DNA of 46,034 nt from Nannocystaceae bacterium. GTDB taxonomy: Bacteria > Myxococcota_A > Polyangia > Nannocystales > Nannocystaceae. Positions 12,377 to 39,176 of this stretch are shown in pieces. The stretch spans positions 1 to 46,034 of the forward strand of contig JAXLYC010000019.1 of assembly GCA_046351635.1 (NCBI GenBank), read 5' to 3'. The notes under the pieces were generated by a model. It had not been told where the DNA came from and made no database searches. It worked only from the letters and a program-made list of their open reading frames with translations. Made by a program: the position numbers and the translations under genes. Position 1 is the first letter of the stretch. The number at the start of each line of letters is the position of its first letter.

Positions 12377-12479
12377 CGGGGGCGCGCCATCGCGATTTGG
12401 CGACATCGACTGAGTCACGCGGTTTCTCGGCTCACGATCCAGTGGCCGCGAGGTGAGCGCGGCTGACCGCCCCTTGCTG

Positions 12480-12735
12480 TTCCTGTCCGTGGTCGACGTG
12501 GTCGACGCCAGGCCGGGGCACCCGCGGGGCCGCTCCGGGCGCTCCGGGCCATCGGGCTGCTAGCGTCGGCAGCGTCGGCAACATCGCCCACGACGAACGC
12601 CTGGTTCAGGGCCCCGATGACAAGTCGCAGCCGTTAGATGTCTTGGGCTGCTGCTCGCCCACGTCCTGGCCCCCGTCCGGTGTCCGGTCGTCATGGGTCG
12701 TCGGTCGTCGTCGGTCGTCGTCGATCTGTCCCGAG
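12480..12735. repeat. Cluster of five short (7-12 bp) head-to-tail tandem duplications in non-coding DNA
   Basis: Read directly: gtggtcgac-gtggtcgac, gctccgggc-gctccgggc, agcgtcggc-agcgtcggc, gtccggt-gtccggt, and (ggtcgtcgtc) three times, all within about 250 bp. Confidence 0.5.
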
Positions 12736-13981: not shown

Positions 13982-14446
13982 TCAACGGGGATAATAAGTT
14001 ACTTCGTGCTCCGCGCAAGGAGTGAAAAATGCGAGGCGGTCGGGGTTTGCGACAGCGTTTGGACTTCGTCGCAAGTTCTCGTAGAAGTCGGCACAGCTTT
14101 CGAAGCTGCTGCGACAGGAATTCGAGACCGGGTGTCGTCGAGAACAAAGACGCAATAGGCTGTTGGCCGCGGTGAAGCGAAAAGTGCTCGCTATGTGCGG
14201 TGTAGCGAGCTGCACACTGAGAGCGTGTTCGGAGCAGGTGTCCGCGAGTAGTTGCCCGTTCTCTCGCGCCATCCAGCAGGACCACTGGGGGCGTGCTTCA
14301 ACATCGGGCTGCGTCGCTCTTGCGGCGCCTTCCGAAGTTGCCATCGCGCCTGCGCGCTCGACTCGTAGGGACGCCTCGTCAGGTGCACCGCCACACGAAG
14401 CGAAGAGTCCTGATTCCACCGATGGCAACGACGCGCAGGGGCCCAT
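13982..14446 (-). CDS. Longest ORF inside the low-GC island (154 aa), hypothetical; may be a relic
   Basis: The composition is not Arg-rich (...RENGQLLADTCSEHALSVQLATPHIASTFRFTAANSLLRLCSRRHPVSNSCRSSFESCADFYENLRR...), but I recognise no motif. Confidence 0.2.
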   Translation of the reverse strand: MGPCASLPSVESGLFASCGGAPDEASLRVERAGAMATSEGAARATQPDVEARPQWSCWMARENGQLLADTCSEHALSVQLATPHIASTFRFTAANSLLRLCSRRHPVSNSCRSSFESCADFYENLRRSPNAVANPDRLAFFTPCAEHEVTYYPR

Positions 14447-15084
14447 GAGCAGGCTTGAGCCCAGCGCTGCTTGCCGCGTTCGATGTCGTCGCGGAGGTCA
14501 TCTTCACGCTCGCGCCTCTCAGCAGAACTCCAGGGGCGCTCCAGTGATCGCGGATACGGAGGCGACAAAGGCGACGGATCTGCTCGTCGTCGAGCTTGGA
14601 CAAGATGGGAAAATCGGTGGCGTTCCCGGCAGGCCCAGCGCCTGGGACCTCGACCCGAACGACGTTGAGGGGTAGCGCCCGTCTTCGACGCCCACGCCCA
14701 GTTCTTCGCGGGGTCCGTCTTGTGCTGCACCCACGCGCGCCAGGCCGTCAGGCCCTTGGCCTCACTCGACGTACTTCTGCCCATTGTGTCCGTGCTGAAT
14801 CGGTATCCACCGCATCAGGCTGCGCCTCGCGCCCATCGTAATTCGGCCAGACCCGCCCAGGCGCGCTTCTTCAGCAACGACCCAGCCTTTCGCGACCGTG
14901 CCAACACCCCTCACCACGATTCCACCGAGATCCCGGCCTTGCACCCCAAGCCCCCCGACTTTCCCCCGACCGCGTTATCCTGCAAGCTCGCTGCGTTTGT
15001 CCTTTCGGGCAACACTGCGAGCCGAGTTCGCGGGCTCGAGGCGTTCGGCGAATCGGCAGGTGTCCGGGCATGCGTGGCCGGCGA

Positions 15085-17741: not shown

Positions 17742-18370
17742 CAGCGTGGATCTCCGTCGTGGGGGCCAGCCAGACCGAGGCCGGCGCGGATCAAGGCGAA
17801 CACGTCGTCGATGGTCTCGGCCGGCGGAAGGCGGCCCTCCCACAGCACCCAGCGCATGCCCATGAAGTCGAAGATACCCATGAGCGCATAGGCGACCGCC
17901 TCCGGATCGAGCGCACGGATCTCGCCGCGCTGCATGGCCTTGGCCAGGCCGTCGCGGTAACCCTGCGCCAGTCGGCGGTAGTATTCGCGATGCAGCGCCT
18001 CGTCGACGAACTCGGCCTGGCGGATGATGCGATACAGGTTCTTGTGCTCCTGCACGAAGTGCAGGAACGCGACCAGACCCGCGCGCTCGATCGCGAGGCG
18101 ATCGGCGAGTCCCTCGACCGCGGCCGCGAGCGTGCGGCGCAGCGTCGCGCCGAGCTCGTCGACCAGCTCGGCGAAGATCGCCTTCTTGCCGCCGAAGTAC
18201 AGGTAGAAGGTGCCCTGGGCCACGCCGGCGGTGCGCGTGATGTCGACGATCGACGCGGCCTCGTAGCCGCGTTCGCCGAACACGACCTCGGCGGCCTCGA
18301 GCAGGTTCTGCCGCGTGCGCTGGCCCCGGGCCGTGACGGGCTCGGCGATGGCGTCGCTCCCGGTCGCCAT
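17741..18370 (-). CDS. TetR/AcrR family transcriptional regulator
   Basis: MATGSDAIAEPVTARGQRTRQNLLEAAEVVFGERGYEAASIVDITRTAGVAQGTFYLYFGGKKAIF is a classic TetR helix-turn-helix. 209 aa. Start and stop codons overlap the neighbouring genes (cTGATGc at both ends). Confidence 0.85.
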   Translation of the reverse strand: MATGSDAIAEPVTARGQRTRQNLLEAAEVVFGERGYEAASIVDITRTAGVAQGTFYLYFGGKKAIFAELVDELGATLRRTLAAAVEGLADRLAIERAGLVAFLHFVQEHKNLYRIIRQAEFVDEALHREYYRRLAQGYRDGLAKAMQRGEIRALDPEAVAYALMGIFDFMGMRWVLWEGRLPPAETIDDVFALIRAGLGLAGPHDGDPR

Positions 18371-19827
18371 CAGCCCTCCTCCGCGGCTGCGATCGCGGCG
18401 CGGCCGCGCGCGAACAGCAGCGCCAGACCGACCATCATGCTGACGAAGATCGCCGCGCAGGCGGACACCGCGGGGTTGTCGACCGTGCCGTGCCACAACA
18501 GCCCCACGTGGGTGACCAGGGCCGTGGCCGCGGCGGTGCCGACGATCCACGCCGGCATCGCGCCGCGCACGATCACGCCGAACACCACCGGCACGAACGA
18601 CGCCGCGGCCAGGGCATACACGCCGCGTTGGGCGAACAGGCCCACCAGCGCCGGCGGATCGAGCGCGAGCACGAACGAGACCAGGCCCACGCCCACCAGC
18701 GCCACCCGCGATGCCAACAGCCCGGTCTTGGCGTCTGCGTCGCGGCTGCGGCCGCGCAGCACCAGATCGTGCGTGACCATGGCCGACAGCGCGACCAAGA
18801 TGCCGTCGAGCGTCGACATACCCGCGGCCAGCATCGTCACCAAGGTGATCGCGGAGACCATCTCGCCCGCGGTGCCGCCGCCGAACGCGAGCGTGACGTA
18901 GTCGGTCACCACGCGGTCCTGCTGCTCCGGGCCGTAGCTCATGCCGTCGAGCCGCGCGTACAGGCCGGTGAACAGGCACAGCGAGAACACGCAGCCCAGC
19001 GCGACCGCAGTGACGATGAAGCGGTTCACGTCGCGCTCGCTGCGGAGGTACAGCACCTTGGTGATGATGTGCGGCTGCAGCATCAGCGCGAACGTCACGA
19101 CGAAGGCGCTGACGAACACGGAGAACACCGAGCCGTAGAGGTCGCTGTCGGGGTTGACGGGCGCGGCGAAGTTGCTCGAGACCTTGGCGAACGCGTCGAC
19201 GATGCCGTCGCCCAGGTGCTCCGCGCCCGAGGCGAACATCGCGACCGCGATCACGGCCATCATCGCCGCCTGCACCACGTTGGTGTAGGCGTGGGCATAG
19301 GTGCCGCCGAGCAGCACGTAGCTGAACACGACCACGAGCGTGCCCGCGAGCGCGATCTCGTAGGATACGCCCAGTAGCGCGACCACCAGCAGCGCGCAGC
19401 CGACCATGATGAGCACGACGAAGCTGATCGACAACAGGTTGAGCACGGCGAAGCCCCGCGCGAGCGCCTCGCTGCCGTAGCGCGCGCGGATCCAGTCCGG
19501 TACCGTGAGGCTGCCGTGGCTGTCACCGACGCGGCGGAAGCCCTTGCACACCGCGAGCAGACCGAACGCCACGCCGGCCTGGGCCGCCACGCCGTAGTGC
19601 AGCAGCGCCGAGAGCCCGTGGGTGTAGACGAAGCCGGGGTTGATCACGAACGTCGCGGTCGATGCGATCGACGCGGCCATGACCACACCGACGAGCACCG
19701 GGCCCATGTCGCGATTGCCGATGGCGAAGCCGACCAAGGAGGTGGTCTTGCGCATGCCGATCCACGACAGCCAGTAGACCGCGACGAGGTAGACCGCGAG
19801 CAGCGAGAGCTTGACCAGCAGGATCAC
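18370..19827 (-). CDS. Sodium:solute symporter (SSS) family transporter
   Basis: About 13 predicted transmembrane helices (VILLVKLSLLAVYLVAVYWLSW...). GTG start at 19827 with GGAGGG seven bases upstream. The start overlaps the upstream hydrolase stop (GTGA). Confidence 0.75.
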   Translation of the reverse strand: MILLVKLSLLAVYLVAVYWLSWIGMRKTTSLVGFAIGNRDMGPVLVGVVMAASIASTATFVINPGFVYTHGLSALLHYGVAAQAGVAFGLLAVCKGFRRVGDSHGSLTVPDWIRARYGSEALARGFAVLNLLSISFVVLIMVGCALLVVALLGVSYEIALAGTLVVVFSYVLLGGTYAHAYTNVVQAAMMAVIAVAMFASGAEHLGDGIVDAFAKVSSNFAAPVNPDSDLYGSVFSVFVSAFVVTFALMLQPHIITKVLYLRSERDVNRFIVTAVALGCVFSLCLFTGLYARLDGMSYGPEQQDRVVTDYVTLAFGGGTAGEMVSAITLVTMLAAGMSTLDGILVALSAMVTHDLVLRGRSRDADAKTGLLASRVALVGVGLVSFVLALDPPALVGLFAQRGVYALAAASFVPVVFGVIVRGAMPAWIVGTAAATALVTHVGLLWHGTVDNPAVSACAAIFVSMMVGLALLFARGRAAIAAAEEG

Positions 19828-21065
19828 GGCGAGCCCTCCGCGTCGGCGCGGTCGCGACGGCGCGCGGCGACCGGCTCCGTCGGCGGCGGTGCGTCGACGC
19901 TCGGCTGCGGCGGCGGATCGCCGGCCGGCACCTCCGCCGGGCTCGACGTCGGCGTGGGCTCGGCCGACGCGGGCGCCGATGGCTCGGGCTCGCGCGGCGC
20001 GGCGGCGCTGGGTCGCGCGTCGGGATCGGTGCCCGGGGCGTACAGCGGCTCGACGCTGGTGCCCGGCGCCGCCATCCGCGGCTTGCGCGTGCGTTCGCCC
20101 TTGGGCACGCGGACGTCGTCGAGAAAGCGCAGCACCGCGCTGTTCCACGCGTCGGCGGCCTCGAACTGCGCGAAGTGTCCCGCGCGTTCGAGCATCACCA
20201 GCTGACCATCGCGCATGGTCTCGACCGCCTTCTTGGCCAGCCGCTCGGTGCTGCCGCCGTGCAGCAGCGGGTTGGGGATGAGGTTGTCGTACTCGCCGAA
20301 CACCACCAACGTCGGCAGCTCGAGGTCGCGCAGGCGATCGACGACCGGGCCGTCGAGCATGCCCGCGACCGAGCGCGAGACCGCGTTGCAGTAGGCTTCG
20401 AAGTCGGGCCCACCGACCACCGCGAGGCGATCACGGACCATGAACTCCGCGGACTTGGGCACGCGGTGGAAGTTCTGCGTGTGGCGCAGCCACACCGCCT
20501 CGGCGTCGGCCTTGCACGTGAACTCGGGCGTGGTCGCGCCGGCGAGCCAGTGCGCCTCGCCGTCGGCGAAGCGCTCGAGCCCGGCGGGCGACGACAAGAC
20601 CAGCGCGTCGACGTCCTGCGGGTACTCGAGCGCGTAGGTCATCGCGATCTGGCCGCCCATCGAGTGACCCACGAGCACGACATGCGACAGTCCCAGCTCG
20701 CGCACCACGCCGCGCACGGCCTTGGCGAAGAAGGCCATCGAGTAGTCGTAGTTGCCCTTGGAGCTCTTGCCATAACCGGGCAGGTCGATCGCGACCACGC
20801 GGTGGCGGGCCGACAGCGCCGCGAGGTTCTCCTTCCACGCCGGCATCGAGCTGCCCAGGCCGTGGATCAGCACCAGCGTGCGCGCGTCCGCGTCCGCGGG
20901 CGCGCCGCTGTCGTGCACCGCGATGGTGGCGGTGCCGACCGCCAGCTGTCGCGTGGGCATGGGGTACTGCAGCGCCGAGAAGGCCACGCCGGACTTCGCG
21001 GCACAACCGCCCGCGAGCAGGGCCGCGAGCAGCAACGTGGGCAGCGTGCGAGTGGGTCGCGTCAT
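19824..21065 (-). CDS. Alpha/beta-hydrolase-fold lipoprotein with Pro-rich C-terminal tail
   Basis: MTRPTRTLPTLLLAALLAGGCAAK lipobox. HGLGSS and GHSMGG nucleophile-elbow motifs. C-terminal low-complexity Pro/Ala/Glu tail. ATG at 21065 confirmed. Confidence 0.8.
   Translation of the reverse strand: MTRPTRTLPTLLLAALLAGGCAAKSGVAFSALQYPMPTRQLAVGTATIAVHDSGAPADADARTLVLIHGLGSSMPAWKENLAALSARHRVVAIDLPGYGKSSKGNYDYSMAFFAKAVRGVVRELGLSHVVLVGHSMGGQIAMTYALEYPQDVDALVLSSPAGLERFADGEAHWLAGATTPEFTCKADAEAVWLRHTQNFHRVPKSAEFMVRDRLAVVGGPDFEAYCNAVSRSVAGMLDGPVVDRLRDLELPTLVVFGEYDNLIPNPLLHGGSTERLAKKAVETMRDGQLVMLERAGHFAQFEAADAWNSAVLRFLDDVRVPKGERTRKPRMAAPGTSVEPLYAPGTDPDARPSAAAPREPEPSAPASAEPTPTSSPAEVPAGDPPPQPSVDAPPPTEPVAARRRDRADAEGSP
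19834..19839 (-). promoter_or_regulatory. Shine-Dalgarno (GGAGGG) for the SSS transporter, embedded in the 3' end of the hydrolase gene
   Basis: The minus-strand sequence ggagggctcgccGTGatc is read directly. Confidence 0.5.
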
Positions 21066-21073
21066 CGGTGGCC

Positions 21074-22666
21074 TCACAACATCAACCACTTGAGCGTGAG
21101 CATGGTGGTCCAGGGATCGCGCGGACGTTGGCTCTCGCCGCTGCTGCCCGTGACGATCTCGGGGCTGGCGAAGTAGTCGCCCAGGCGCAGGTACGCCGCG
21201 TGGGCCTCGAGCGACAGCATCGGGCGGATGCGCCACGAGACGTTGCCGTTGACCTCGGCGCCCATGAAGTAGGCGCCCTGCACCGGCTGCACGTTCGATC
21301 GCGCGAACGCACCGCCGATGCGAGCGGACAGCTTGTTGCGCAAGATGTCGCCCGAGACGCCCAGCGACAGCGCGGTCATGCCGTAGCCGGCGTTGGAGAT
21401 GTCCGCGGCCGCGGCGTAGTAGCGGTTGACGACGTTGGCGTGGGGCAACAGCAGGTAGGTGCCGAAGCTGGTGAACGGCGCCGCCGGTGAGCCCCAGGTG
21501 TTGCCGGTGACGACGCCGGTGTAGCTGCCGTCCTGCAGACCGTTCTTGTCGCCCGAGGTGTAGAGGAAGTCGGCGGTGACGGCATCGCGGGCGGTGCGAC
21601 CCCATCGCGCCGCGAGCCGCACGTTGGCGGCGAGCCCGAGCACGTTGGTGAGCTTCTGGAAGTCGCCGGGCTGGTTGGGGATCGCGGTGACGATCTGGCC
21701 GAAGTTGCCGACCATGAAGGCCGAGCCGCCGAAGCGACCGGCGGCGAGCTCGGGGTTGAACGAGGTATCGCCCGCGAGCCACAGGAAGTGGCCGCGCCAG
21801 CTCGGGGCATCATCGGGGATCGTGAAGCGGTAGCCGCCGTTGTAGTCGACCAGCACGCTGTCGGGGCCCTGGCCGAGGATGCCGACGCCGCCCTGACCGG
21901 TGGAGGTGTCCCGCAGGTATCGCAGACTGCCGCCGACGTGCCAGGTCTTGCCCAGGTGGCGATCGGTCGCGAGCTCGAACAGCGCGACGTCGTCGTCCTT
22001 CTGGATCAGGTTCTCGTACAGCTGATAGGCGCCGAGCTTGAAGCGCTGTCCCGCGGTGGTGCCGTGCAACACTGCGCCGACCGCATCGGTGCCCCAGAAG
22101 GCCATGCGCGTGCCGGTCAGCTGCATCGTCGGCACCGGCGTGCGGTAGGGATCGTAGGTGCTGTCGTAGAGCCGCTGCAGGCCCACGTCGATCGACCAGC
22201 CCTTCCACAGATCGATCTCGACCGCGAGGTTCTGCGTCTGCAGGTTGACCTGGTCCGCGGTGATGGCCGAGCCGAAGTTGCCGCCGGCGGAGTTGGAGGT
22301 GTCGCCGAAGGTCCAGTCGAGCTCGAACGAGGCCCGCAGTCGCGCGCGGTGATCGAGCAGCGCCGGCTCGACCACCGCGAAGGGGATGAGCCGCTGCTCG
22401 AGGAAGACCGCGCGCTCCTTCGACGTGGTCGTGGTGTTGGGCCCGAACAGGCGCCCGACGATCTGACCCTTGAACAGGTCGTTCTGCGGCGAGACGTTGG
22501 TCATCTCGGCGCGGGTCATGAAGTAGCCGTAGAGCTGGAACGCGCGCCACGCTCGCTTGCTGCGCTGCAGCTGCTCGGGCGCCTGCTGCACCGCGACGTC
22601 GGGCAGCGGCGGCGGTGAGGGTGCCCACGCGGTCGTGAGCGCGGCGAGCAGCGTGGACGTCAACAT
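21074..22666 (-). CDS. Outer-membrane beta-barrel protein (possible polysaccharide/solute porin)
   Basis: Signal peptide MLTSTLLAALTTAWAPSP. 530 aa with alternating amphipathic beta-strand character rich in Gly/Tyr/Asn. Ends ...LTLKWLML. Stop 8 bp upstream of the hydrolase start. Confidence 0.6.
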   Translation of the reverse strand: MLTSTLLAALTTAWAPSPPPLPDVAVQQAPEQLQRSKRAWRAFQLYGYFMTRAEMTNVSPQNDLFKGQIVGRLFGPNTTTTSKERAVFLEQRLIPFAVVEPALLDHRARLRASFELDWTFGDTSNSAGGNFGSAITADQVNLQTQNLAVEIDLWKGWSIDVGLQRLYDSTYDPYRTPVPTMQLTGTRMAFWGTDAVGAVLHGTTAGQRFKLGAYQLYENLIQKDDDVALFELATDRHLGKTWHVGGSLRYLRDTSTGQGGVGILGQGPDSVLVDYNGGYRFTIPDDAPSWRGHFLWLAGDTSFNPELAAGRFGGSAFMVGNFGQIVTAIPNQPGDFQKLTNVLGLAANVRLAARWGRTARDAVTADFLYTSGDKNGLQDGSYTGVVTGNTWGSPAAPFTSFGTYLLLPHANVVNRYYAAAADISNAGYGMTALSLGVSGDILRNKLSARIGGAFARSNVQPVQGAYFMGAEVNGNVSWRIRPMLSLEAHAAYLRLGDYFASPEIVTGSSGESQRPRDPWTTMLTLKWLML

Positions 22667-22684
22667 GGCGCGGACCCCGTCGAG

Positions 22685-23362
22685 CTACTGGCGGACGAAC
22701 ACCTGGGTGAGATCGGGGCCGAGCGACGTCGCGCCGAAGCCGGCCTCTGCGGTCGGCGCGACCGCGCCGACGCTGGGCTCGGTCTGCACGACCTCGTAGC
22801 GCAGCACCGCCGGGCTCACGCTGTCGTCGATCTCGAAGATGCCCTCGACCGTGATCGCCTGCGGCATGGTCTGCTCGAGCGTGATGTCGAAGATCTCGCC
22901 GACACCCGAGGGCGTGGCGGTGTAGACCCCGACCTGCTGCACCTGCTGGCCCTGGTCGTCGATCGTCACGACGGTGAAGGCCTGGGGCCCGAAGGTCGCG
23001 GTGATCGAGGTCGCGCCGGTGAGCTCGACCAACAAGGGCGCGATGTCGTCGCCCTCGCTGAGCCACGCGCCCTCGAGCGTGACGGGCTGCGCCGCGGTGT
23101 CGTCTGCGCCGCCCGAGTCCGAGCCTGCATCCGCGCCGCCGTCGACCGCGGTGTCGCTGGTGTCCGCTGCCGAGTCCAGTCCGCCGGAATCCACCGCGCC
23201 CTCGCCTGCGTCGTCGCCAGCGTCGTCGCCGACGCTGGCGGCATCGCCCGCGCTCGCGTCGGTGTCACCGACGCTGTCTCCGGAGGTCCGCGCGGTGGTG
23301 GAGACGCCGGCGCCACTGCAGGCGGTCAGCAGCGCGAGCACGACGAAGGGCTTGGTTCGCAT
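22685..23362 (-). CDS. Acidic lipoprotein, hypothetical
   Basis: MRTKPFVVLALLTACSGAG lipobox. Asp/Gly/Ser-rich linker then a folded C-terminal domain. ATG at 23362 confirmed. 18 bp upstream of the outer-membrane protein gene. Confidence 0.6.
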   Translation of the reverse strand: MRTKPFVVLALLTACSGAGVSTTARTSGDSVGDTDASAGDAASVGDDAGDDAGEGAVDSGGLDSAADTSDTAVDGGADAGSDSGGADDTAAQPVTLEGAWLSEGDDIAPLLVELTGATSITATFGPQAFTVVTIDDQGQQVQQVGVYTATPSGVGEIFDITLEQTMPQAITVEGIFEIDDSVSPAVLRYEVVQTEPSVGAVAPTAEAGFGATSLGPDLTQVFVRQ

Positions 23363-23543
23363 GGTGGATCCCCGGCTGCCCGCCATGTCGCAGTGCAACA
23401 TGACGAGCGATTCAGGTCTCATACTCGACGCGTGCGGGCCTGTCAAGGCGCCCTGGCGGGGGAATTCTCCCCTCGCGGGCCTTTCGCATCGCAGCGAGAC
23501 CGGGCTTCGCCCGACCCCCGAGGAAGCGCGCAGGCGTGCGACG

Positions 23544-26500
23544 TCAGCGACGGCGACGACGCCCAGACACTGCGACGACGACGACCAGTGCCCACGGCCA
23601 CGCGTGCGCGCGGGTCGTGGTGCAGCCGCAGCCGCCGCTGCCCTCGCCCTCGCCGTCGGCACCGGCGCTGCTGCTGCCACCGCTGCCGTCGGCGTTGCCC
23701 GAGCTCGCGCCGGCGGTGCCACCACTGCCGTCGCCACCACTGCCGTCGGCGCCGGTGTCGGTGCCGGCAGGATCGGGCGGCAGCGGCGAGTCGAGCAACC
23801 ATCGCACCGTGCGACGCACCTCGGTCTCGTTGCCGGCGAGGTCCTTCACCCGCGCCATGACCTCGACCTCGGGGTCCGACAGCGCGGTCGCGAGCGGGAT
23901 CTCGAGCACGTCGTGGGGCATCGCGCCGCCCTGCGCCAACATCGTCGCGCACGTTCCGGCCTCGTCGAGCACGCAGACCTCGAGCGAGGCGACGTCGATG
24001 CCGCTGGGGATGTCGACCGTGCCGACGCGCAAGGCGGTGACGGCGTCGCCGTCGTAGAGCGCGGCGAGGTTGAGCGTGGGCTTCTGCGTGTCGGTCAGCT
24101 CCTCGGGTCCACCGGGCGCGCCGATGTCGATCCAGCGGCCCAGGATGCCGAGCTGCTCCGGTGTGATCGTGGTCGGGTGATCGGGGCCGAAGTCGAGGTC
24201 GCGATCGTCGGGCGGCGACGCCTCGTCGAAGCTCGCGTCGGTGTTGCCGTCGGTGCGCATGCCCGCGGCCTTCCAGTACAGCGGGCTGCCCAGCGAGTTG
24301 AACGCGCGCACGTAGCGGGTCAGCTGTGGCCGGCGGAAGGTCGTGCCGTTGGTCGTGGCCATGCGCTGGGCCTCGGGCACGCACGACTGGCCGCGATCGG
24401 CGACCAGACACCACCAGGTCGAGTCCTGCTCGACCCCAGGGCGATCGAGCGCGAGCGATCCGTCGGGCGCGTCGCCGCTGTGGCACTGCGCGCAGTGCTC
24501 GTCGAAGATCGGCATGATGTCGCGCTCGAAGTCGATCTGCAGCGCGTAGCCCTCGACCTCGCGCACGGCCGGGCCCTGCGCGCCCGCACCCGCCAGCAGC
24601 GGCACGGTGCCCTCGCCCAGCGGGATCACGGGGTAGTCCGGCATCGCGGCGTAGCTGTCCTCGAAGCCGATGCGCGAGTCCTTCGAGTGCACGTGGCAGC
24701 CGCCGCAGGTCTTCATCTCGCCCGGCCGCAGGCTCTGCCAGCTCTGATCGGTGTTGAGCGTGTGGCCGTCGCAATCGATGCCCTGCATGAGATAGGGCGT
24801 GTTGGCGGGGAAGCGCACCAGGAAGCTGGTGTCGGCGTTGCCGCTGGGATCGACGACCGGCGCGCCGTCTTGCAGGTTGCGCACGCCGAACTCGCCGAGG
24901 ATGACCACGCGCTCACCGGCGACGTTGGCGATCTGCTCGTAGAGGTTGGTGCCGCGGTTGGGCAGCACGCCCAGGATGCGCACGCCGCAGAGATCCTCGT
25001 CGCCGTACTCGATCGTGTCGGTGCCCTGCAGATTGAACTGGTGCTCGCCGGCGAAGTGGATGCCGCCGACCGGGTGGGTCTCGCGATCGGTGATCGAGGC
25101 CGCGCCGAGCAGGCCGAACGGCGTGCCGACCGGCAGCTCCGGGCGCGAGGCCTGCTGGTCCGCGCGGGGGATCGCGGCCGGCGTCTCGATGCCGTGGATC
25201 GCCGCGTAGGGCACGACCGCGCGGGCCATGATCTCGTGCCACTGCGGCTCGTCGACCACGCGCTCGAGATCGCTGGGATGCTCCGAGGGCATCGTCGCGA
25301 CCTCGTAGATGCCCGCGTCGCACGCCGGCGTGTCGAGCTGCAGCTGGGTGAAGACGTTGGCCGCGACGCCCTGCCCCGAACCCGAGGTCGCCGGCGGCAC
25401 CGGCAGGCCCAGCGCGTCGAAGATGCCGTTGTCGGCCACGGTCCCGCACGCGCCCTTGCCCCACGTCGCCATCAGCCCGCCGTCGGGCAGCGCCGCGGCG
25501 TGGCCGAGCTTGCCGGCGAACACCACCGGATCGGCGTAGTTCGGATCCTGGTACGCGGGCGCGGGCATCACCGCCGCGAAGGAATCGCTGCTGCTGGACC
25601 AAGGCGCCAGCCGCACGATGTCGTGCGGCGCGTACAGATCCGCCAGCGGCGCAGTGGGATCGAGCATGCCCTCCTGCCCCGCCGGCTCGGGCATCACGCC
25701 CACGAGGTTGCCCAGGCCGTTGTTGTTGCCGCGGTAGTAGTCGGTGAACCACACGCGGCCATCGCCGGTCTGCGCGAGGAAGTGCGCGGCCTTGTGATCG
25801 ACGCCGGCGCTGGTGATGGGCGAGTGGTCGCCGCAGTGCTGGCCGTAGAACGCGAACGGATGCGCGCCGTCGGGCGCCTGCACGAAGATGTTGAAGGCGT
25901 TGCCGATGGTGCCGAAGCCACCCGGGCTGCCGTTGGTGTAGCGGAACGTCAGACCACCGAAGATCTGCCAGCTCGAGTAGGCCACGCGACCGTCGGCGAG
26001 CACCAGCGGGTGTTGCTCGAGCGACAGCGAGTGGTGACTGGCGAGATCGAGATTGCGACCGTCGGGATCGACGGTCCAGATGCGCGAGCCGTTGCCGGCG
26101 TTGTTGGTGCCCCACACCATCGTGGTGAGGTTGCCGTCGCGCGTGGAGGTGAACGCCAGGCGCCCGTCGGGTAGCCACGCCGGCCCCGCGTCCCAGGTGC
26201 CGGGCAGCCACGGCAGCTCGGTGAGCTCACCGGTCGCGACATCGACCAACATCAGCTGCGCGTGCTCGGTCTGCAGCAGCTTGCCCGGCAGATCGTGCCA
26301 CGCGTCGTCGCCACCGACCGCGACGGAGAAGTTCTCGCTGTTCGGCGTCAACGTGCCGCGGAAGACCGAGAACGCGATGGTCTCGCCGTCGAACGACACC
26401 GCCGGATCCATCGCCGCGCACGCGGCTGCATCGGTGCTCTCGCTGCCGCAGTCGTACAGCAGCGACTCGCTGCCGTCGGGTTGCCGCAGCACCAGATCGC

Positions 26501-26750
26501 ACGGCGCACTGAAGCCGCTGTAGAAGTGCGTGACGTCCGGCAGCACGTCGTAGACGTCGATGCCGATCATCGTCGTGCCCGGCAGCTGCAGCGGCTCGGT
26601 CGTGCGCGGGCAGCGGACGTAGGCGATCGGATGATCGAGCGCTTGGGCGCTGGGCACCAGCCACGGCACGGCCACGGCCGCCGCGATCACCAGGGGCGAG
26701 ACGTGCACCGCGCGGAGCACAGGACGGGGACGACGGCCGGGGGTGCGCAT
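23544..26750 (-). CDS. Large secreted protein: PD40/TolB-like beta-propeller repeats, two CxxCH motifs (one matching the PSCyt1 pattern), C-terminal MYXO-CTERM
   Basis: Signal peptide MRTPGRRPRPVLRAVHVSPLVIAAAVAVPWLVPSAQA. WLPDGRLAFTSTRDG-type propeller repeats. Two CxxCH motifs: MKTCGGCHVHSKD and FERDIMPIFDEHCAQCHSGDAPDGSLALD (the second fits the PSCyt1 pattern). The C-terminus GCGCTTTRAHAWPWALVVVVAVSGRRRRR is a MYXO-CTERM signal. Confidence 0.75.
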   Translation of the reverse strand: MRTPGRRPRPVLRAVHVSPLVIAAAVAVPWLVPSAQALDHPIAYVRCPRTTEPLQLPGTTMIGIDVYDVLPDVTHFYSGFSAPCDLVLRQPDGSESLLYDCGSESTDAAACAAMDPAVSFDGETIAFSVFRGTLTPNSENFSVAVGGDDAWHDLPGKLLQTEHAQLMLVDVATGELTELPWLPGTWDAGPAWLPDGRLAFTSTRDGNLTTMVWGTNNAGNGSRIWTVDPDGRNLDLASHHSLSLEQHPLVLADGRVAYSSWQIFGGLTFRYTNGSPGGFGTIGNAFNIFVQAPDGAHPFAFYGQHCGDHSPITSAGVDHKAAHFLAQTGDGRVWFTDYYRGNNNGLGNLVGVMPEPAGQEGMLDPTAPLADLYAPHDIVRLAPWSSSSDSFAAVMPAPAYQDPNYADPVVFAGKLGHAAALPDGGLMATWGKGACGTVADNGIFDALGLPVPPATSGSGQGVAANVFTQLQLDTPACDAGIYEVATMPSEHPSDLERVVDEPQWHEIMARAVVPYAAIHGIETPAAIPRADQQASRPELPVGTPFGLLGAASITDRETHPVGGIHFAGEHQFNLQGTDTIEYGDEDLCGVRILGVLPNRGTNLYEQIANVAGERVVILGEFGVRNLQDGAPVVDPSGNADTSFLVRFPANTPYLMQGIDCDGHTLNTDQSWQSLRPGEMKTCGGCHVHSKDSRIGFEDSYAAMPDYPVIPLGEGTVPLLAGAGAQGPAVREVEGYALQIDFERDIMPIFDEHCAQCHSGDAPDGSLALDRPGVEQDSTWWCLVADRGQSCVPEAQRMATTNGTTFRRPQLTRYVRAFNSLGSPLYWKAAGMRTDGNTDASFDEASPPDDRDLDFGPDHPTTITPEQLGILGRWIDIGAPGGPEELTDTQKPTLNLAALYDGDAVTALRVGTVDIPSGIDVASLEVCVLDEAGTCATMLAQGGAMPHDVLEIPLATALSDPEVEVMARVKDLAGNETEVRRTVRWLLDSPLPPDPAGTDTGADGSGGDGSGGTAGASSGNADGSGGSSSAGADGEGEGSGGCGCTTTRAHAWPWALVVVVAVSGRRRRR

Positions 26751-26934
26751 GGCGACCTCCAGAGGTCGCGCGAGCGCGGCGAAACGGCTCACGGGCCCGC
26801 ACGGGTGTGGGGCCACGGTGCGTGCCCCGACCCGCGCCCGTGCGCGGTCGCGCGGGTGGCGAGCTGACACACCCCGCGCGCGGTATCGTCGAGCCTGCGC
26901 CGCCCCGCGGCACCGGGCAGCGCAGGCCCGACGC

Positions 26935-28019
26935 ATGAGACTCGATCCCACCCTCGCGCTCCCGTTCGCCGTGGCACTGGCGTGCCACGCACCGACCACC
27001 TCGCCCGGCAGCGCGCCCGCGGTCGCGCAGGATTCCGCGACGCGGCTGCAGGTGCGGGTCGATCCGCGCGTCGAGCTGTTCTCGATGCTGTGGCGCACCG
27101 CTGGCATCCCGCCCTACGCGCCGCAGGACGAGCATCGCACGCCCTACGAAGCGGCGGTCGACGCTCGCATGGCGCCGCTGCGGTCGCACCCCGCGGTGCA
27201 GCAGGCCGAGGCGCTGGCCGAGTCCAAGGGCATCGGCTTCGACGCGCCGATGAGCCTCGCGGTCACCTGAGCTGGCCCGAGCTCGAGCTCGTGCGTCCGC
27301 TGCAGCCCTGGCCAGCATCGCTCGACGACCGCTGGCAGGGGGTCGACATGGACGCGTGGCTCAGCACGGTGCGTTCGTTCGCGAGCGACGCGCGGCTGGC
27401 CGAGTTCTTCGGCGAGCAACGGCCGTTGTGGGACCGCGTCGACGCGACGATGGCGGCGTTCGTGCAGGCGCACGGTGCCGACGCGCCCCAGTGGCTGCAC
27501 GAGTTCAGCGGCACCGCGATCGCACAGACGGTGCTGGTCCAGGGCCTGCTCACCGAGCGCGGCAACTACGGCCCGCACGTCGTGCTGCCCGACGGGCGCA
27601 AGACCGCATACCAGATCATCGTGAACTGGCACCCCGACGAGGACGGCGTGCCACGGCCACAGCCCGATCTCGCGGTGTTCTACATCCACGAACTCGCGCA
27701 CAGCTACATGAACCCGCTGGTCGAGCGCCACGCGTCGATCCTGCAAGCCTCGGCGCAGGCGCTGTACGACCGACATGCCGCGGCGATGGAGGCAGTGGGC
27801 TACGGCGAGTGGTACTCGGTCGCGTGCGAGTCGTTGGTGCGCGCCGCGACCCGCACCTACCTGCACGATGATCCCGAGGCGGCCGCCGGCGCGGACGAGA
27901 ACGACCGCCTGCAAGGCTTCGCGTGGGTCCCCGAGGTTGCCGCCGTGCTCGAGCCACCACTCGACGAGACCGACATGACCGCGGTCGCACAGGTGCTCGC
28001 GCGCCACGGCGCGCCGTGA
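26935..28019 (+). CDS. HExxH-motif lipoprotein (possible zinc-dependent hydrolase), apparently frameshifted near 27265
   Basis: MRLDPTLALPFAVALACHAP lipobox in the frame of ORF 26743. That frame ends ...GFDAPMSLAVT*, and the protein continues in the frame of ORF 26982 (LSWPELELVRPLQPW...YIHELAHSYMNPL...). The junction is at cggtcacctgagctgg. Confidence 0.6.
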
Positions 28020-28022
28020 GGG

Positions 28023-29633
28023 TCAGCCCAGCGCGCGGATCGTCACCACCGTCGGCCGCAGCCCCACGTCCGCGGCCAGGCACCACCGCGGCGCGGCCTT
28101 GCCCATCGCGCGCCAGCCCGGCGCCTGCGACAGCGCGAAGGCGCCGCGATCGAGCGCGAGCTCGACGGTCTCACCCCGCGGCAGGAACACCAGCGCGCCG
28201 TTGTCGGTGGTGCGCACGCGCAGGGACTCGGGCACGAAGTAGCGCACCACCCCCGCGACGACGGGCGGCGCGAGTTCGTCGGTGATCTGGATGCGATCGC
28301 CGTCGAAGATCACGCGACGTCGGTGGGTCGCGGCGCCCTTGTAGCCGCGGACCTCGGCCAGCAGGCGCCGCGCACTGGCCTCGAGCTGGTGCGGCAGCGC
28401 GCGGCCGCCGATGCGGTGGCTCTTCCACAGCTCGTGTTGATCGCGGTCGCCCACGGTGACGGTGTTGTGCGCCGCGGTCGAGCGCGCGTAGCGACGATCG
28501 TCACCCTCGACGTAGGTGCCCACGCCGGCGTCGACCAGCACGCGCGTGCGACCGTACGACAGCTCGATCGACAGGCAATCGCCGTGGATGTGCCCGGTCT
28601 GCTGCGGCAGGCCCACGCCGCCTTGGTTCCACAGCAACGTGAACGGACCCCATGCTCGCCGTGCGAAGCCGCTGTCGCTCGCGTCGGCGTCGCCCTCGGC
28701 CAAGGCCACGGCGCAGCGATGGGCCAGGCGCATGGGCGTGACCGGGGCCTGCAGCTGGCTGTCGCCCCACAGCGCGACGTCGCCATCGGGATGCGTGAAC
28801 GCGGGCAACACTGCGAGCATGTGCTCCAAGGCCACGCGCAGCGGATCGGCCACACCCGGCAGGCGCGGCTCGGCCAGCGCGATCACCAGCGACAGCTGCT
28901 CGGCGAGCAGGCAGTGGTAGCTGGGCGTGCGCTCGGCATGCACGCCGTCGTCGCCCAGCTGCGCCTGCACGCAGTGCAGCAGCGGTGTCGCGAAACGCTC
29001 GAGCATGGCTGCCGGTACGTGACCGCGCAGCGCCAACCCACCGGCGACCAGCGCGACCAGGTTGGTCCACAGGTGGTTGCCGTCGAGGTGGAGCTCGACG
29101 TGCGAGGCGAGGTGCTGCAGCTGCGCGCTCACCGACGCGAGCACCAGCTCGAGCTCGCCCGCATGCAGGTGGGCGCCGTCACGCGCGAGCCAGCCGAGCC
29201 AGTGCAGCAGCCGCTGCGAGCAGGGATACGGCTCCCAGCCCACGCCTTCGCGGTGCTCTTCGATCCAGTCGAGCACGGTCGCGCGGGCCTGCGCGCGTGT
29301 GCACGCGGGATCGGCGAGCCAGCCGTGGTAGTGCAGCGTGTACACCCACAGCGGATCGCCATCGCCGGTCCAGCCGAAGCGCACCGGATCGTGCGCCGGC
29401 TGACCCAGCAACACCACGCCGCCGTCGGGCTCGATGTGGCCCTCGGGCGAGGGCCCCACGAAGCCCTCGGGCAGCTGCAGCGCGTCGCAGCCGGGCGCGC
29501 GCGACTGCGTGGGGCTGCGCGCGGGCCCGCGGGAACGCTGGCGCACGAACGCGAGCAGCTGCGTCGGCCGCAGGTGCGCCGCCGATCGCAGCGTGGGGCC
29601 CAGGGTCTCGATCGCGCGGCGCAGTCGGGTCAT
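28023..29633 (-). CDS. Heparinase II/III-like polysaccharide lyase family protein
   Basis: MTRLRRAIETLGPTLRSAAHLRPTQ.... It has motifs I take to be heparinase II/III-like and alginate-lyase-like (WVYTLHYHGWL, HGDCLSIELSYG). ATG at 29633 confirmed. Confidence 0.7.
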   Translation of the reverse strand: MTRLRRAIETLGPTLRSAAHLRPTQLLAFVRQRSRGPARSPTQSRAPGCDALQLPEGFVGPSPEGHIEPDGGVVLLGQPAHDPVRFGWTGDGDPLWVYTLHYHGWLADPACTRAQARATVLDWIEEHREGVGWEPYPCSQRLLHWLGWLARDGAHLHAGELELVLASVSAQLQHLASHVELHLDGNHLWTNLVALVAGGLALRGHVPAAMLERFATPLLHCVQAQLGDDGVHAERTPSYHCLLAEQLSLVIALAEPRLPGVADPLRVALEHMLAVLPAFTHPDGDVALWGDSQLQAPVTPMRLAHRCAVALAEGDADASDSGFARRAWGPFTLLWNQGGVGLPQQTGHIHGDCLSIELSYGRTRVLVDAGVGTYVEGDDRRYARSTAAHNTVTVGDRDQHELWKSHRIGGRALPHQLEASARRLLAEVRGYKGAATHRRRVIFDGDRIQITDELAPPVVAGVVRYFVPESLRVRTTDNGALVFLPRGETVELALDRGAFALSQAPGWRAMGKAAPRWCLAADVGLRPTVVTIRALG

Positions 29634-39161: not shown

Positions 39162-39176
39162 GATCGCGAGCCCGCG

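What the first reader, a model, noticed from the sequence alone, without database searches (positions are those of the whole stretch)
23544..26750. 1068-aa MYXO-CTERM surface protein combining beta-propeller repeats with two CxxCH (PSCyt1-like) motifs
Signal peptide, PD40/TolB-like repeats, then MKTCGGCHVH and FERDIMPIFDEHCAQCHSGD (the latter fits the PSCyt1 pattern), ending in GCGC + hydrophobic + RRRRR. This is a putative haem-binding, surface-tethered propeller protein of unknown function. It sits directly upstream of the uptake module and is separated from it by a 180 bp promoter region.
Basis: partly seen in the sequence, partly recalled or inferred. Interest (0 to 1): 0.55.

Follow-up and report, generated by a model that had tools for sequence, protein, structure and literature searches.

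The report
Surface-anchored hydrazine-synthase-alpha-like dihaem protein
The gene encodes an exported, probably cell-surface-tethered two-haem protein of a myxobacterium that has the same fold as the alpha subunit of anammox hydrazine synthase. It lacks that enzyme's key catalytic residues and partner subunits, so it belongs to a widespread but uncharacterised family of stand-alone relatives whose chemistry is unknown.

Summary
A 1068-aa minus-strand ORF (23544-26750) carries a Sec signal peptide, a TolB-like six-bladed propeller, two CxxCH motifs, an Ig-like domain, a Gly/Ser linker and a MYXO-CTERM tag. Both CxxCH motifs are kept in every complete homologue found, down to 38% identity.

The evidence is Pfam HZS_alpha, Foldseek E 6e-27 with TM 0.63, and hhalign probability 98%. 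PSCyt1 membership is not met.

It is not a hydrazine synthase:
- The haem-alphaI Tyr591 ligand is absent.
- The Zn ligand Cys303 is replaced by an invariant His305.
- No beta or gamma subunit gene lies nearby.
- The HzsA equivalog model scores 51 bits against a cutoff of 800.

The bis-His haem alphaII site is kept, including the His772 equivalent, H858.

The family is spread across Myxococcota, Nitrosomonas, Colwellia, Lysobacterales and others. Members are 50-60% identical, have no gene neighbour shared across the family, and carry lineage-specific surface-sorting tags. The link to the downstream "uptake module" holds only in the closest relative.

A conserved ECF-sigma-like promoter motif (TGAGCC-N17-CGAC) ends 14 nt before the ATG here and 9-14 nt before it in all Nannocystaceae orthologues.

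The chemistry remains unknown. Interest is moderate.

The parts
26765..26791 (-). Conserved ECF-sigma-like promoter motif TGAGCCGTT-N8-CTCGCGCGAC (equivalent to TGAGCC-N17-CGAC), ending 14 nt before the ATG
   Evidence: It is the only block conserved in otherwise unalignable upstream DNA of 7 Nannocystaceae orthologues. Exact matches lie upstream of every such orthologue, 9-14 nt from the ATG. The only other matches (0-2 mismatches) in 1.3 Mb of loci are three sites in L074, one each in L008 and L069. The L074 sites lie 9 nt before the first gene of an ECF sigma/FecR operon, just before the ECF sigma gene itself, and before another gene. Promoter function is inferred.
26756..26760 (-). GGAGG Shine-Dalgarno-like sequence 5 nt before the ATG
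   Evidence: Read directly from the sequence. It may not be used if the mRNA is near-leaderless.
26640..26750 (-). Sec-type signal peptide, residues 1-37 (cleavage predicted after AQA)
   Evidence: Sequence inspection. Homologues become alignable only from residue ~41 onward. pLDDT is below 50 for residues 1-17.
24846..26639 (-). N-terminal beta-propeller domain, residues ~38-635. It is TolB/PD40-like and HzsA-like, with large family-specific insertions. It contains invariant H305 (25836-25838), H247 (26010-26012), H323 (25782-25784), H319, H505 and several invariant Cys.
24546..24845 (-). Middle domain (Pfam HZS_alpha), residues ~636-735, carrying haem site 1
   Evidence: PF18582: 42.8 bits against a cutoff of 26.6, residues 639-686. 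Aligned to 5c2v_A.
24687..24707 (-). Haem-attachment motif 1: C682-G-G-C685-H686-V-H688, equivalent to HzsA haem alphaI C583xxC586H587
   Evidence: Translation check. CxxCH is invariant in all homologues. H688 is kept in the main clade and replaced by Arg or Pro in a paralogue clade.
24096..24545 (-). C-terminal helical cytochrome-c-like domain, residues ~736-885, carrying haem site 2
   Evidence: Helical secondary structure with the CxxCH directly after the first helix. Sub-threshold hits to Cytochrome_CBB3, PccH and PSCyt1. hhalign to the HzsA C-terminal domain.
24480..24494 (-). Haem-attachment motif 2: C753-A-Q-C756-H757, equivalent to HzsA haem alphaII C685xxC688H689
   Evidence: Invariant in all complete homologues.
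24177..24179 (-). H858, predicted distal ligand of haem 2 (aligned to HzsA His772)
   Evidence: Local hhalign run. Invariant wherever the region is present.
23781..24095 (-). Ig-like beta-sandwich domain, residues ~886-990, absent from HzsA
   Evidence: All-beta secondary structure at high pLDDT. Sub-threshold Big_13 and Big_3_2 hits. The HzsA alignment ends at residue 879.
23640..23780 (-). Disordered Gly/Ser/Asp-rich stalk, residues ~991-1037
   Evidence: pLDDT below 50 for residues 996-1053. Low-complexity sequence.
23547..23639 (-). MYXO-CTERM sorting signal, residues 1038-1068: GCGC motif, TM helix, RRRRR
   Evidence: TIGR03901: 23.1 bits against a cutoff of 20. Helix at 1054-1067. Present only in Myxococcota members of the family.
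23544..23546 (-). Stop codon TGA

Best explanation
The gene encodes a stand-alone member of the 'HzsA-related' family.

Biogenesis and location (inferred from the sorting signals and the published MYXO-CTERM pathway):
1. The protein is exported by Sec.
2. It receives two covalently bound c-type haems in the periplasm.
3. Its MYXO-CTERM tag is lipidated at a Cys and cleaved by myxosortase.
4. It is then displayed on the cell surface through the type II secretion system, held on an Ig-like domain and a roughly 50-residue flexible stalk.

Architecture (shown): it is that of the hydrazine synthase alpha subunit, namely a six-bladed propeller, a middle domain with haem 1, and a cytochrome-c-like domain with haem 2.

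Haem sites (ligands inferred from alignment):
- Haem 2 keeps the bis-His ligation of HzsA haem alphaII (H757 and H858). It is the likely electron-transfer or structural haem.
- Haem 1 sits where the HzsA active-site haem alphaI sits, but its surroundings are rebuilt. The Tyr that ligates iron in HzsA is missing. The Zn-binding Cys303 is an invariant His (H305). Further His residues (H247, H323, H688), which are conserved in the main clade only, occupy neighbouring active-site positions.

Proposed function (inferred, low certainty on the substrate): it acts alone, without beta/gamma partners, as an extracytoplasmic haem enzyme. Haem 1 is His-ligated, with an adjacent His-rich site that may bind a metal. 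It probably converts a small N- or O-containing species such as hydroxylamine, NO or peroxide. It does not make hydrazine.

Regulation (inferred): expression appears to be driven by an ECF sigma-type promoter immediately upstream of the ATG, giving a near-leaderless mRNA. The gene would therefore belong to an envelope-signal-responsive regulon.
For: Fold and homology:
- Pfam HZS_alpha 42.8 bits.
- phmmer and hmmsearch hit 5c2v_A at both haem motifs.
- The AF2 model has pLDDT 89 and pTM 0.88.
- Foldseek's top PDB hit is 5c2v_A at E 6.3e-27, TM 0.63 over 979 columns. The next hit is TolB at 1.5e-9.
- hhalign of the family against true HzsA gives probability 98.3% over 619 columns.

Haem sites: both CxxCH motifs are invariant. 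H858 aligns with HzsA His772.

Remodelled site 1:
- Tyr591 aligns with the variable K/R/Q at residue 690.
- Cys303 aligns with invariant H305.
- D257 aligns with H247, T319 with H323, and G589 with H688.
- H247, H323, H688 and D308 are lost together, along with 32 other pocket positions, in a paralogue clade.

Stand-alone status:
- No gene neighbour is conserved across the 82 family loci.
- No HzsB or HzsC homologue is found in 1.29 Mb of flanks or in the window.

Surface location:
- MYXO-CTERM is present, and its pathway is described in PMC11980579.
- A Colwellia orthologue carries GlyGly-CTERM at 18.1 bits against a cutoff of 15.5.
- Other orthologues carry Ig, cadherin or PKD extensions.

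Promoter.
Against: - No catalytic activity, haem content or localisation has been measured for any family member.
The proximity of the His residues to haem 1, the presence of a metal, and the haem-haem distance are all untested.
- In HzsA, haem alphaII is out of electron-transfer range of alphaI (PMC12607021). If the same holds here, haem 2 cannot feed haem 1.
- The joint loss of H247, H323 and H688 is a single phylogenetic event. It is accompanied by many other changes, so it does not isolate a metal site.
- The family occurs in organisms with very different lifestyles, which gives no clear substrate hint.
- The ECF promoter assignment rests on motif conservation and one ECF/FecR operon in another genome. 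No cognate sigma factor was identified in the window.
Confidence: 0.55

Rival explanations
1. It is a genuine hydrazine synthase alpha subunit. The organism would then have anammox-like hydrazine-forming chemistry.
For: It has the same three-domain fold and both haem sites. The NCBIfam hydrazine_alpha model gives a weak hit.
Against: - The NF052339 equivalog scores 50.8 bits against a cutoff of 800.
- The Tyr591 ligand is absent and Cys303 is replaced.
- No beta or gamma genes are found in the window or next to any of the 82 family loci.
- The host lineages include aerobic bacteria such as myxobacteria and Nitrosomonas.
- The protein is sorted to the cell surface.
- Published work on other HzsA homologues reaches the same negative conclusion when these residues are missing (PMC12758564).
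Confidence: 0.02
2. It is a non-catalytic surface cytochrome: an electron conduit or redox sensor that passes electrons between the cell envelope and an extracellular acceptor or donor. The propeller would serve only as a scaffold or binding module.
For: It has two c-type haems, predicted surface display, and a bis-His low-spin-type haem 2. The propeller resembles the protein-binding TolB and YWTD propellers.
Against: - Two haems in a ~1000-residue protein are unlikely to form a wire.
- In the HzsA template the two haems are beyond efficient electron-transfer distance.
- About 120 residues are invariant across both clades, including many polar residues on propeller loops that align with the HzsA active-site region. 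This suggests a pocket under catalytic constraint.
Confidence: 0.13
3. It is the extracellular capture or processing component of the downstream 'uptake module' (lipoprotein, putative outer-membrane barrel, alpha/beta hydrolase, sodium:solute symporter). It would act on the substrate that module imports.
For: The genes share the same strand and are adjacent with a 181-bp gap. The arrangement is kept in the closest relative, L005.
Against: - The arrangement is absent from five other Nannocystaceae orthologous loci and from all other family loci.
- The gene has its own conserved promoter-like motif.
- A TTGACA-N17-TATGAG in the gap suggests separate transcription of the downstream genes.
Confidence: 0.07
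4. It is a PSCyt1/DUF1549/DUF1553-type 'planctomycete cytochrome' protein.
For: The DIxPIFxxxCxxCH string resembles the start of PSCyt1. PSCyt1 appears as a weak hit (E 0.069) on the isolated domain. In one paralogue locus (L074), a protein with sub-threshold PSCyt2 and PSCyt3 similarity is nearby.
Against: - The score is 14.2 bits against a cutoff of 22, and only 20 of 59 model positions match.
- No such partners appeared among the window ORFs scanned.
- The domain aligns along its whole length with the HzsA C-terminal domain instead.
Confidence: 0.03

Closest known systems
Hydrazine synthase alpha subunit (HzsA, kuste2861; PDB 5C2V/5C2W chain A) of anammox bacteria
   Same: - It has the same three-domain architecture: a six-bladed propeller, a middle domain with a CxxCH haem, and a C-terminal cytochrome-c-like domain with a bis-His CxxCH haem.
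- Foldseek gives E 6e-27 and TM 0.63. hhalign gives probability 98%.
- The distal His772 of haem alphaII is conserved as H858.
- It is secreted through a signal peptide.
   Different: - Sequence identity is about 15%.
- There is no Tyr591 haem ligand.
- The Zn ligand Cys303 is His305, and extra His residues occupy neighbouring positions.
- No beta or gamma subunits are encoded nearby.
- It has about 200 extra residues of propeller insertions, an added Ig-like domain, a stalk and a MYXO-CTERM tag.
- It is displayed at the cell surface rather than inside an anammoxosome.
- The hosts are not anammox bacteria.
HzsA homologues of clades I-IV in Planctomycetota and Desulfobacterota (Hagglund et al. 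2025, PMC12758564)
   Same: They are distant HzsA-like proteins with a conserved haem alphaI motif, and they also lack Tyr591 and Cys303. The authors likewise judged them not to be hydrazine synthases.
   Different: - Those genes are co-localised with fused beta-gamma (CCP/MauG-like) genes and often with an FG-GAP/CRTAC1 gene. They occur in bacteria the authors describe as obligate anaerobes.
- Clade I lacks the His772 equivalent, and clades II and III lack haem alphaII altogether.
- The present family is stand-alone, keeps the complete bis-His haem 2 site, and carries surface-sorting tags.
Database family 'HzsA-related protein' / 'HZS_alpha domain-containing protein' (UniRef names; Pfam PF18582)
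   Same: The target is a typical member. Orthologues 50-89% identical over the full length are so named in UniRef, or called 'MYXO-CTERM sorting domain-containing protein' or 'PD40 domain-containing protein' by NCBI.
   Different: Nothing distinguishes the target from its orthologues except the lineage-specific tail. No member has an experimentally determined function (and the literature searches).
TolB (Tol-Pal system beta-propeller protein)
   Different: TIGR02800 scores 14.6 bits against a cutoff of 343. TolB has no haem domains. The similarity covers the propeller only.
MYXO-CTERM surface proteins such as TraA (myxosortase MrtX substrates)
   Same: It has the tripartite C-terminal tag: a Cys motif, a TM helix and an Arg-rich end.
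   Different: The passenger domain is unrelated. Only the sorting mechanism is shared.

Membership tests
Hydrazine synthase alpha subunit (NCBIfam NF052339 equivalog; functional HzsA) | Full-length match to the equivalog model at or above its cutoff of 800 bits | tested here: not met
   50.8 bits, in three short stretches.
Hydrazine synthase alpha subunit (NCBIfam NF052339 equivalog; functional HzsA) | Three-domain fold: propeller, middle haem domain and C-terminal cytochrome c domain | tested here: met
   Foldseek to 5c2v_A gives E 6.3e-27, TM(target) 0.63 over 979 columns. hhalign gives probability 98.3% over 619 columns.
Hydrazine synthase alpha subunit (NCBIfam NF052339 equivalog; functional HzsA) | Haem alphaI CxxCH motif (C583/C586/H587) | tested here: met
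   C682/C685/H686 align to it and are invariant.
Hydrazine synthase alpha subunit (NCBIfam NF052339 equivalog; functional HzsA) | Tyr591 as proximal iron ligand of haem alphaI | tested here: not met
   It aligns to K690, a position that varies (K, R, Q, T, D, S, A) across the family.
Hydrazine synthase alpha subunit (NCBIfam NF052339 equivalog; functional HzsA) | Cys303 co-ligating the zinc ion with His587 | tested here: not met
   It aligns to H305, which is invariant in all 77 sequences checked. This is a possible metal ligand, but not Cys. Whether a metal is bound could not be tested.
Hydrazine synthase alpha subunit (NCBIfam NF052339 equivalog; functional HzsA) | Bis-His haem alphaII (C685xxC688H689 plus distal His772) | tested here: met
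   C753/C756/H757 and H858 align to these residues and are invariant.
Hydrazine synthase alpha subunit (NCBIfam NF052339 equivalog; functional HzsA) | Co-encoded beta (propeller) and gamma (CCP/MauG-like dihaem) subunits | tested here: not met
   tblastn with HzsB and HzsC found no hit at E <= 0.1 in the 46-kb window or in the flanks of 82 family loci, 1.29 Mb in total. No CCP_MauG Pfam hit appeared among the neighbours. The rest of the genome was not searchable.
Hydrazine synthase alpha subunit (NCBIfam NF052339 equivalog; functional HzsA) | Hydrazine-forming activity | not testable with these tools
   This needs biochemistry.
Pfam PF18582 HZS_alpha (middle domain) | Score at or above the gathering threshold of 26.6 bits | tested here: met
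   42.8 bits, E 7.8e-11, residues 639-686.
MYXO-CTERM sorting domain (TIGR03901) | Model score at or above 20 bits, with the tripartite Cys motif, TM helix and Arg-rich tail at the extreme C-terminus | tested here: met
   23.1 bits at residues 1038-1068. The tail reads GCGC...WALVVVVAV...RRRRR, and a helix is predicted at 1054-1067.
MYXO-CTERM sorting domain (TIGR03901) | Cleavage by myxosortase and display on the cell surface | not testable with these tools
   This is known for TraA in M. xanthus (PMC11980579). It is inferred here.
PSCyt1 (Pfam PF07635, planctomycete cytochrome C) | Score at or above the gathering threshold of 22 bits over the domain | tested here: not met
   There was no hit on the full protein at E <= 1. 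The isolated domain scored 14.2 bits, covering model positions 1-20 of 59.
TolB (TIGR02800) | Equivalog score at or above 343 bits | tested here: not met
   14.6 bits. Only the propeller fold is shared.
ECF-sigma-dependent promoter | Conserved -35/-10-like elements at fixed spacing upstream of the gene, also found upstream of an ECF sigma gene (autoregulation) | tested here: inconclusive
   TGAGCC-N17-CGAC is conserved upstream of all Nannocystaceae orthologues. It also lies before an ECF/FecR operon, and before the sigma gene itself, in L074. No transcription-start data exist and no cognate sigma was identified for this genome.

The most novel reading that the evidence does not exclude
The stand-alone HzsA-related proteins form a new class of cell-surface haem enzymes. 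In them the hydrazine-synthase active-site haem is paired with a His-ligated metal site (H305 plus H247, H323 and H688) instead of the Tyr/Zn-Cys arrangement. They would carry out N-N or N-O chemistry, such as conversion of hydroxylamine, NO or hydrazine, under oxic conditions in myxobacteria, ammonia oxidisers (Nitrosomonas marina carries at least five copies) and marine gammaproteobacteria, under the control of an ECF sigma/FecR envelope-signalling system. If so, they would be the closest functional window onto how hydrazine synthase evolved.
Probability: 0.12. Interest if true: 0.85.

Novelty: new variant of a known kind. Interest (0 to 1): 0.5.

Why it matters
Hydrazine synthase is the signature enzyme of anammox. 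Its origin is debated, and de novo birth has been proposed.

The published distant homologues sit next to beta-gamma genes in bacteria described as obligate anaerobes. Most of them have lost the full haem alphaII site.

This gene represents a different branch:
- It is a highly conserved, stand-alone, surface-sorted family. About 25-30 clusters at 50% identity match over the full length, and 354 clusters score E <= 1e-30 in the wider superfamily.
- It occurs in bacteria that include aerobes.
- It keeps the bis-His haem alphaII ligands.
- It has a His at the position of the Zn-binding Cys.

The family offers proteins from cultivable hosts, such as Chondromyces crocatus, Labilithrix luteola, Tahibacter amnicola, Colwellia psychrerythraea and Nitrosomonas marina. 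In these one could test what the HzsA scaffold does outside anammox. It also adds a haem enzyme to the known cargo of the MYXO-CTERM and GlyGly-CTERM surface-sorting systems.

For genome annotation, 'MYXO-CTERM sorting domain-containing protein' or 'hypothetical protein' can be replaced by 'HzsA-related dihaem c-type cytochrome, not hydrazine synthase'.

Tried and rejected
2. The afdb50 structure library was unavailable.
3. A search of the protein database with a 65-aa HzsA fragment returned only one 94-aa fragment. Full-length HzsA sequences were recovered instead from metagenome contigs.
4. The neighbourhood analysis covered 82 loci. ORFs within 6 kb of the match were compared all-against-all, and HzsB and HzsC were searched across the full stored flanks.
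   - No neighbour shared across the family was found. The largest cluster is a mixed bag of signalling proteins at variable positions.
   - A ~620-aa lipoprotein with weak alpha/beta-hydrolase similarity lies next to the gene in seven loci, but it is absent from the window.
5. The sigma-70 promoter and intrinsic terminator scan of 22600-27300 found nothing.
6. Rfam and tRNA scans of the whole window found nothing.
7. Literature searches for HzsA-like, HZS-like or HzsA-related proteins outside anammox found only two relevant papers, and neither treats this family.
9. Model coordinates are not exposed by the tools. His-to-haem distances, a metal site and the haem-haem distance could therefore not be measured.

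Full report
**1. Observation**

The window is about 72% G+C. The minus-strand ORF 23544-27107 has the codon-position GC signature of a real gene: GC1 0.69, GC2 0.54, GC3 0.92.

Two things support this start. GGAGG lies 5 nt upstream. A promoter-like motif conserved in orthologues ends 14 nt upstream.

All the quoted strings are present:
- A basic/hydrophobic/AQA signal peptide at residues 1-37.
- KTCGGCHVH at residues 680-688.
- FERDIMPIFDEHCAQCH at residues 741-757.
- The tail SGGCGC-TM-RRRRR.

Two CxxCH motifs in a protein of this composition arise in 3.5e-5 of shuffles.

**2. What the protein is**

Domain and sequence searches:
- Pfam assigns residues 639-686 to HZS_alpha, the middle domain of the hydrazine synthase alpha subunit (42.8 bits, cutoff 26.6). 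It also finds one PD40 repeat.
- NCBIfam gives MYXO-CTERM at 23.1 bits (cutoff 20). The hydrazine_alpha equivalog scores only 50.8 bits against a cutoff of 800.
- Against PDB sequences the only real hit is 5c2v_A, the Kuenenia hydrazine synthase alpha subunit, with both haem motifs aligned.

Structure:
- An AlphaFold2 model built on 81 homologues is confident: pLDDT 89.1, pTM 0.88. Only the signal peptide and the 996-1053 linker are disordered.
- Foldseek against the full PDB puts 5c2v_A first, at E 6.3e-27 and TM 0.63 normalised to the target, over 979 columns. TolB follows at 1.5e-9 and covers only the propeller.

Profile comparison with true HzsA:
- I recovered true HzsA sequences from anammox metagenome contigs. 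They are 809-810 aa, and their numbering matches the literature: C303, H587, Y591, H772.
- hhalign of the target family against them gives probability 98.3% and E 1.2e-14 over 619 columns. It spans target residues 103-905 and HzsA residues 81-794.

Domain map:

| Residues | Domain |
|---|---|
| 1-37 | signal peptide |
| 38-635 | propeller, with ~200 residues of family-specific insertions |
| 636-735 | middle domain with haem 1 |
| 736-885 | helical cytochrome-c-like domain with haem 2 |
| 886-990 | Ig-like domain (absent from HzsA) |
| 991-1037 | disordered Gly/Ser/Asp stalk |
| 1038-1068 | MYXO-CTERM |

**3. Is it a hydrazine synthase? No**

The literature defines the HzsA active site as follows (PMC12607021; PMC12758564). 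Tyr591 ligates the iron. Haem alphaII is bis-His, with His772 as the distal ligand.

The profile alignment maps HzsA residues onto the target as follows:

| HzsA | Target | Comment |
|---|---|---|
| C583/C586/H587 | C682/C685/H686 | invariant |
| Tyr591 | K690 | varies across the family, so no Tyr ligand |
| Cys303 | H305 | invariant in all 77 sequences, paralogues included |
| Asp257 | H247 | |
| Glu306 | D308 | |
| Gln315 | H319 | |
| Thr319 | H323 | |
| Gly589 | H688 | |
| C685/C688/H689 | C753/C756/H757 | |
| His772 | H858 | invariant |

The electron-transfer-type haem site is therefore intact. The catalytic site is rebuilt around histidines.

No HzsB or HzsC homologue occurs in the 46-kb window or in the flanks of 82 family loci, 1.29 Mb in total. 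None of the neighbouring ORFs has a CCP/MauG domain.

The defining features of a functional HzsA are thus tested and not met. Hagglund et al. drew the same conclusion for other HzsA homologues.

**4. The family**

The target is typical of a large family.
- The homology search returned 206 proteins at E <= 1e-5 among the candidates scored. All 120 listed have E-value 0, and most cover about 90% or more of the query at 50-89% identity.
- A profile search of 1.84 billion cluster representatives finds 354 clusters at E <= 1e-30, 1250 at <= 1e-10 and 4140 at <= 1e-3. Roughly 25-30 clusters match over the full length.
- Among GTDB species representatives the family occurs in these groups:
  - Myxococcota: Nannocystaceae, Polyangiaceae, Sandaracinaceae, Labilithrix, Archangium and Myxococcaceae.
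  - Nitrosomonas, with at least five copies in N. marina Nm71.
  - Burkholderiales, Lysobacterales, Colwellia/Thalassotalea/Glaciecola, Alcanivoracaceae and Sedimenticola.
  - Nitrospirales, Bdellovibrionota and an Acidimicrobiaceae MAG.
- Both CxxCH motifs are kept in every complete copy, down to 38% identity.

The exact target sequence is already in public collections without a name. Its 90%-identity cluster holds Nannocystaceae MAG proteins called 'MYXO-CTERM sorting domain-containing protein' or 'hypothetical protein'. UniRef calls relatives 'HzsA-related protein' or 'Hydrazine synthase alpha subunit middle domain-containing protein'. No paper I could find treats this family.

A Nannocystales paralogue clade (38-45% identity) keeps H305, H319, H505, both haem motifs and H858. 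It has lost H247, H323, H688 and D308, together with 32 other positions that are conserved in the main clade. These include the YYRGNN loop (residues 338-343), D668/W671/Q672, and K680. This marks those residues as the specificity-determining pocket of the main clade. It is one evolutionary event, so it does not by itself prove a metal site.

**5. Location**

The C-terminal tail differs by lineage while the ~990-residue core is constant.
- Myxococcota members carry MYXO-CTERM.
- A Colwellia psychrerythraea orthologue carries GlyGly-CTERM at 18.1 bits (cutoff 15.5). A second Colwelliaceae tail scores 15.0, just under the cutoff.
- Other members carry Ig-like, cadherin-like or PKD extensions.
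- Lysobacterales copies end in a shared ..IFxxGFE string.

[quoted passage not shown] Surface display of the target is therefore a well-founded inference, though untested.

**6. Genomic context and regulation**

The window is collinear only with a Nannocystaceae MAG contig (L005, 88% nt identity). Relative to L005 it carries an extra ~1.2 kb holding a DUF4932 gene just upstream of the target.

Five other Nannocystaceae orthologous loci (~80% nt identity) share nothing but the gene itself. Across all loci no neighbour is conserved.

The downstream genes in the window are a lipoprotein (23362-22685), a 530-aa putative outer-membrane barrel, an alpha/beta hydrolase and an SSF symporter. They are therefore not a conserved partner set.

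What is conserved is a 27-nt element, TGAGCCGTT-N8-CTCGNGCGAC. It ends 9-14 nt before the ATG in the window (26765-26791) and in every Nannocystaceae orthologue, within upstream DNA that otherwise does not align.

In the 1.3 Mb of loci the only other matches (0-2 mismatches) are:
- Three sites in L074, a Nannocystales paralogue locus. One is 9 nt before the first gene of an operon encoding a lipoprotein, an ECF sigma, a FecR-type anti-sigma, a 394-aa protein and the HzsA-like paralogue. One is just before that sigma gene. One is before a gene pair, the first of which has sub-threshold PSCyt2/PSCyt3 similarity.
- One site in L008, before a ~620-aa lipoprotein that neighbours the gene in seven loci.
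- One 2-mismatch site in L069.

Read as TGAGCC-N17-CGAC, this looks like an autoregulated ECF-sigma promoter producing near-leaderless mRNAs. I infer that the target belongs to such a regulon. No cognate sigma was identified in the window.

**7. Mechanism**

Shown:
- The fold.
- Conservation of both haem-attachment motifs.
- The ligand mapping given by the profile alignment.
- The absence of beta/gamma genes nearby.
- The presence of the sorting tags.
- Conservation of the upstream motif.

Inferred:
- Sec export and Ccm haem attachment.
- Myxosortase processing and surface display.
- Haem 2 as a bis-His electron-transfer or structural haem.
- Haem 1 as a catalytic, probably His-ligated haem flanked by a His-rich (possibly metal-binding) pocket formed by propeller loops.
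- Action on a small N- or O-containing molecule.

The substrate is not known. I give roughly 0.6 to 'catalytic haem enzyme acting alone'. Within that, about 0.2 goes to hydroxylamine/NO-type chemistry and about 0.15 to peroxide chemistry.

A caveat applies. In HzsA the two alpha-subunit haems are too far apart for efficient electron transfer. I could not measure the distance in the model because coordinates are not exposed.

**8. Verdict**

The finding is real and the haem and surface reading is right. The PSCyt1 label and the link to the uptake module are not supported.

The gene is a member of the uncharacterised HzsA-related family. This is a stand-alone, surface-sorted variant of the hydrazine synthase alpha scaffold with a remodelled active site.

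That is of moderate interest for the evolution of anammox enzymes and for surface redox biochemistry. It is not a new kind of system, and the family is already recognisable in public databases.

Noticed in passing
window 26795-28029 (DUF4932 gene, + strand 26982-28019): This ~1.2-kb segment carries a DUF4932-family gene. It is present in the window but absent from the otherwise collinear contig of the closest relative (L005). It is an insertion or deletion immediately upstream of the target's promoter region.
   Followed up: partly
window 12400-14900: A stretch of about 2.5 kb has lower G+C (0.62-0.67 against ~0.72). It has no ORF with coding-like composition, no tRNA and no Rfam match. Its nature is unknown.
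   Followed up: partly
window 18370-23362, minus strand: The downstream genes are a 225-aa lipoprotein with an Asp/Gly/Ala-rich linker, a 530-aa signal-peptide protein with an outer-membrane-barrel-like C-terminus (no Pfam hit), an alpha/beta hydrolase, and a sodium:solute symporter. This arrangement is shared only with L005.
   Followed up: partly
L001 13213-15087, L008 ~6140-7990, L017, L036, L041 (not in the window): A ~620-aa lipoprotein has sub-threshold alpha/beta-hydrolase (Peptidase_S9/Esterase) similarity. It lies directly next to the HzsA-like gene in seven loci from Nannocystaceae, Polyangiales and Sandaracinaceae. In L008 it carries its own copy of the ECF-like motif. It could be an occasional partner.
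   Followed up: partly
L074 3066-7818 and 13894-16861: In a Nannocystales MAG the HzsA-like paralogue sits in an operon with a lipoprotein, an ECF sigma factor, a FecR-type anti-sigma and a 394-aa protein. Relatives of that 394-aa protein occur in L001, L002, L007, L069, L070, L076 and L077. A second motif-bearing gene pair encodes a protein with sub-threshold PSCyt2/PSCyt3 similarity and a 345-aa CxxCH protein. Relatives of this pair flank the family gene in L011, L055, L069 and L070.
   Followed up: partly
L026, L027, L040, L043 (N. marina Nm71); L028, L052, L054, L057 (Nm22): Nitrosomonas marina genomes carry four or more copies of the family. Several contigs end inside a copy at the same residue (689 or 914), which suggests near-identical paralogues that break the assemblies.
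   Followed up: no
L012, L004, L024, L030-L032, L042 (C-termini): Lysobacterales and Alcanivoracaceae orthologues end in a shared ..(D/G)x(I/V/L)F(x)xGFE string with no hit in NCBIfam. It may be an undescribed C-terminal signal, or the start of a domain cut by gene calling.
   Followed up: no
window 4623-~11386, minus strand: Bacterial alpha-2-macroglobulin-like ORFs are present, with bMG10, A2M and bMG3 domains.
   Followed up: no
window 38713-41970, minus strand: A 1085-aa ORF has an N-terminal trypsin-like serine protease domain.
   Followed up: no
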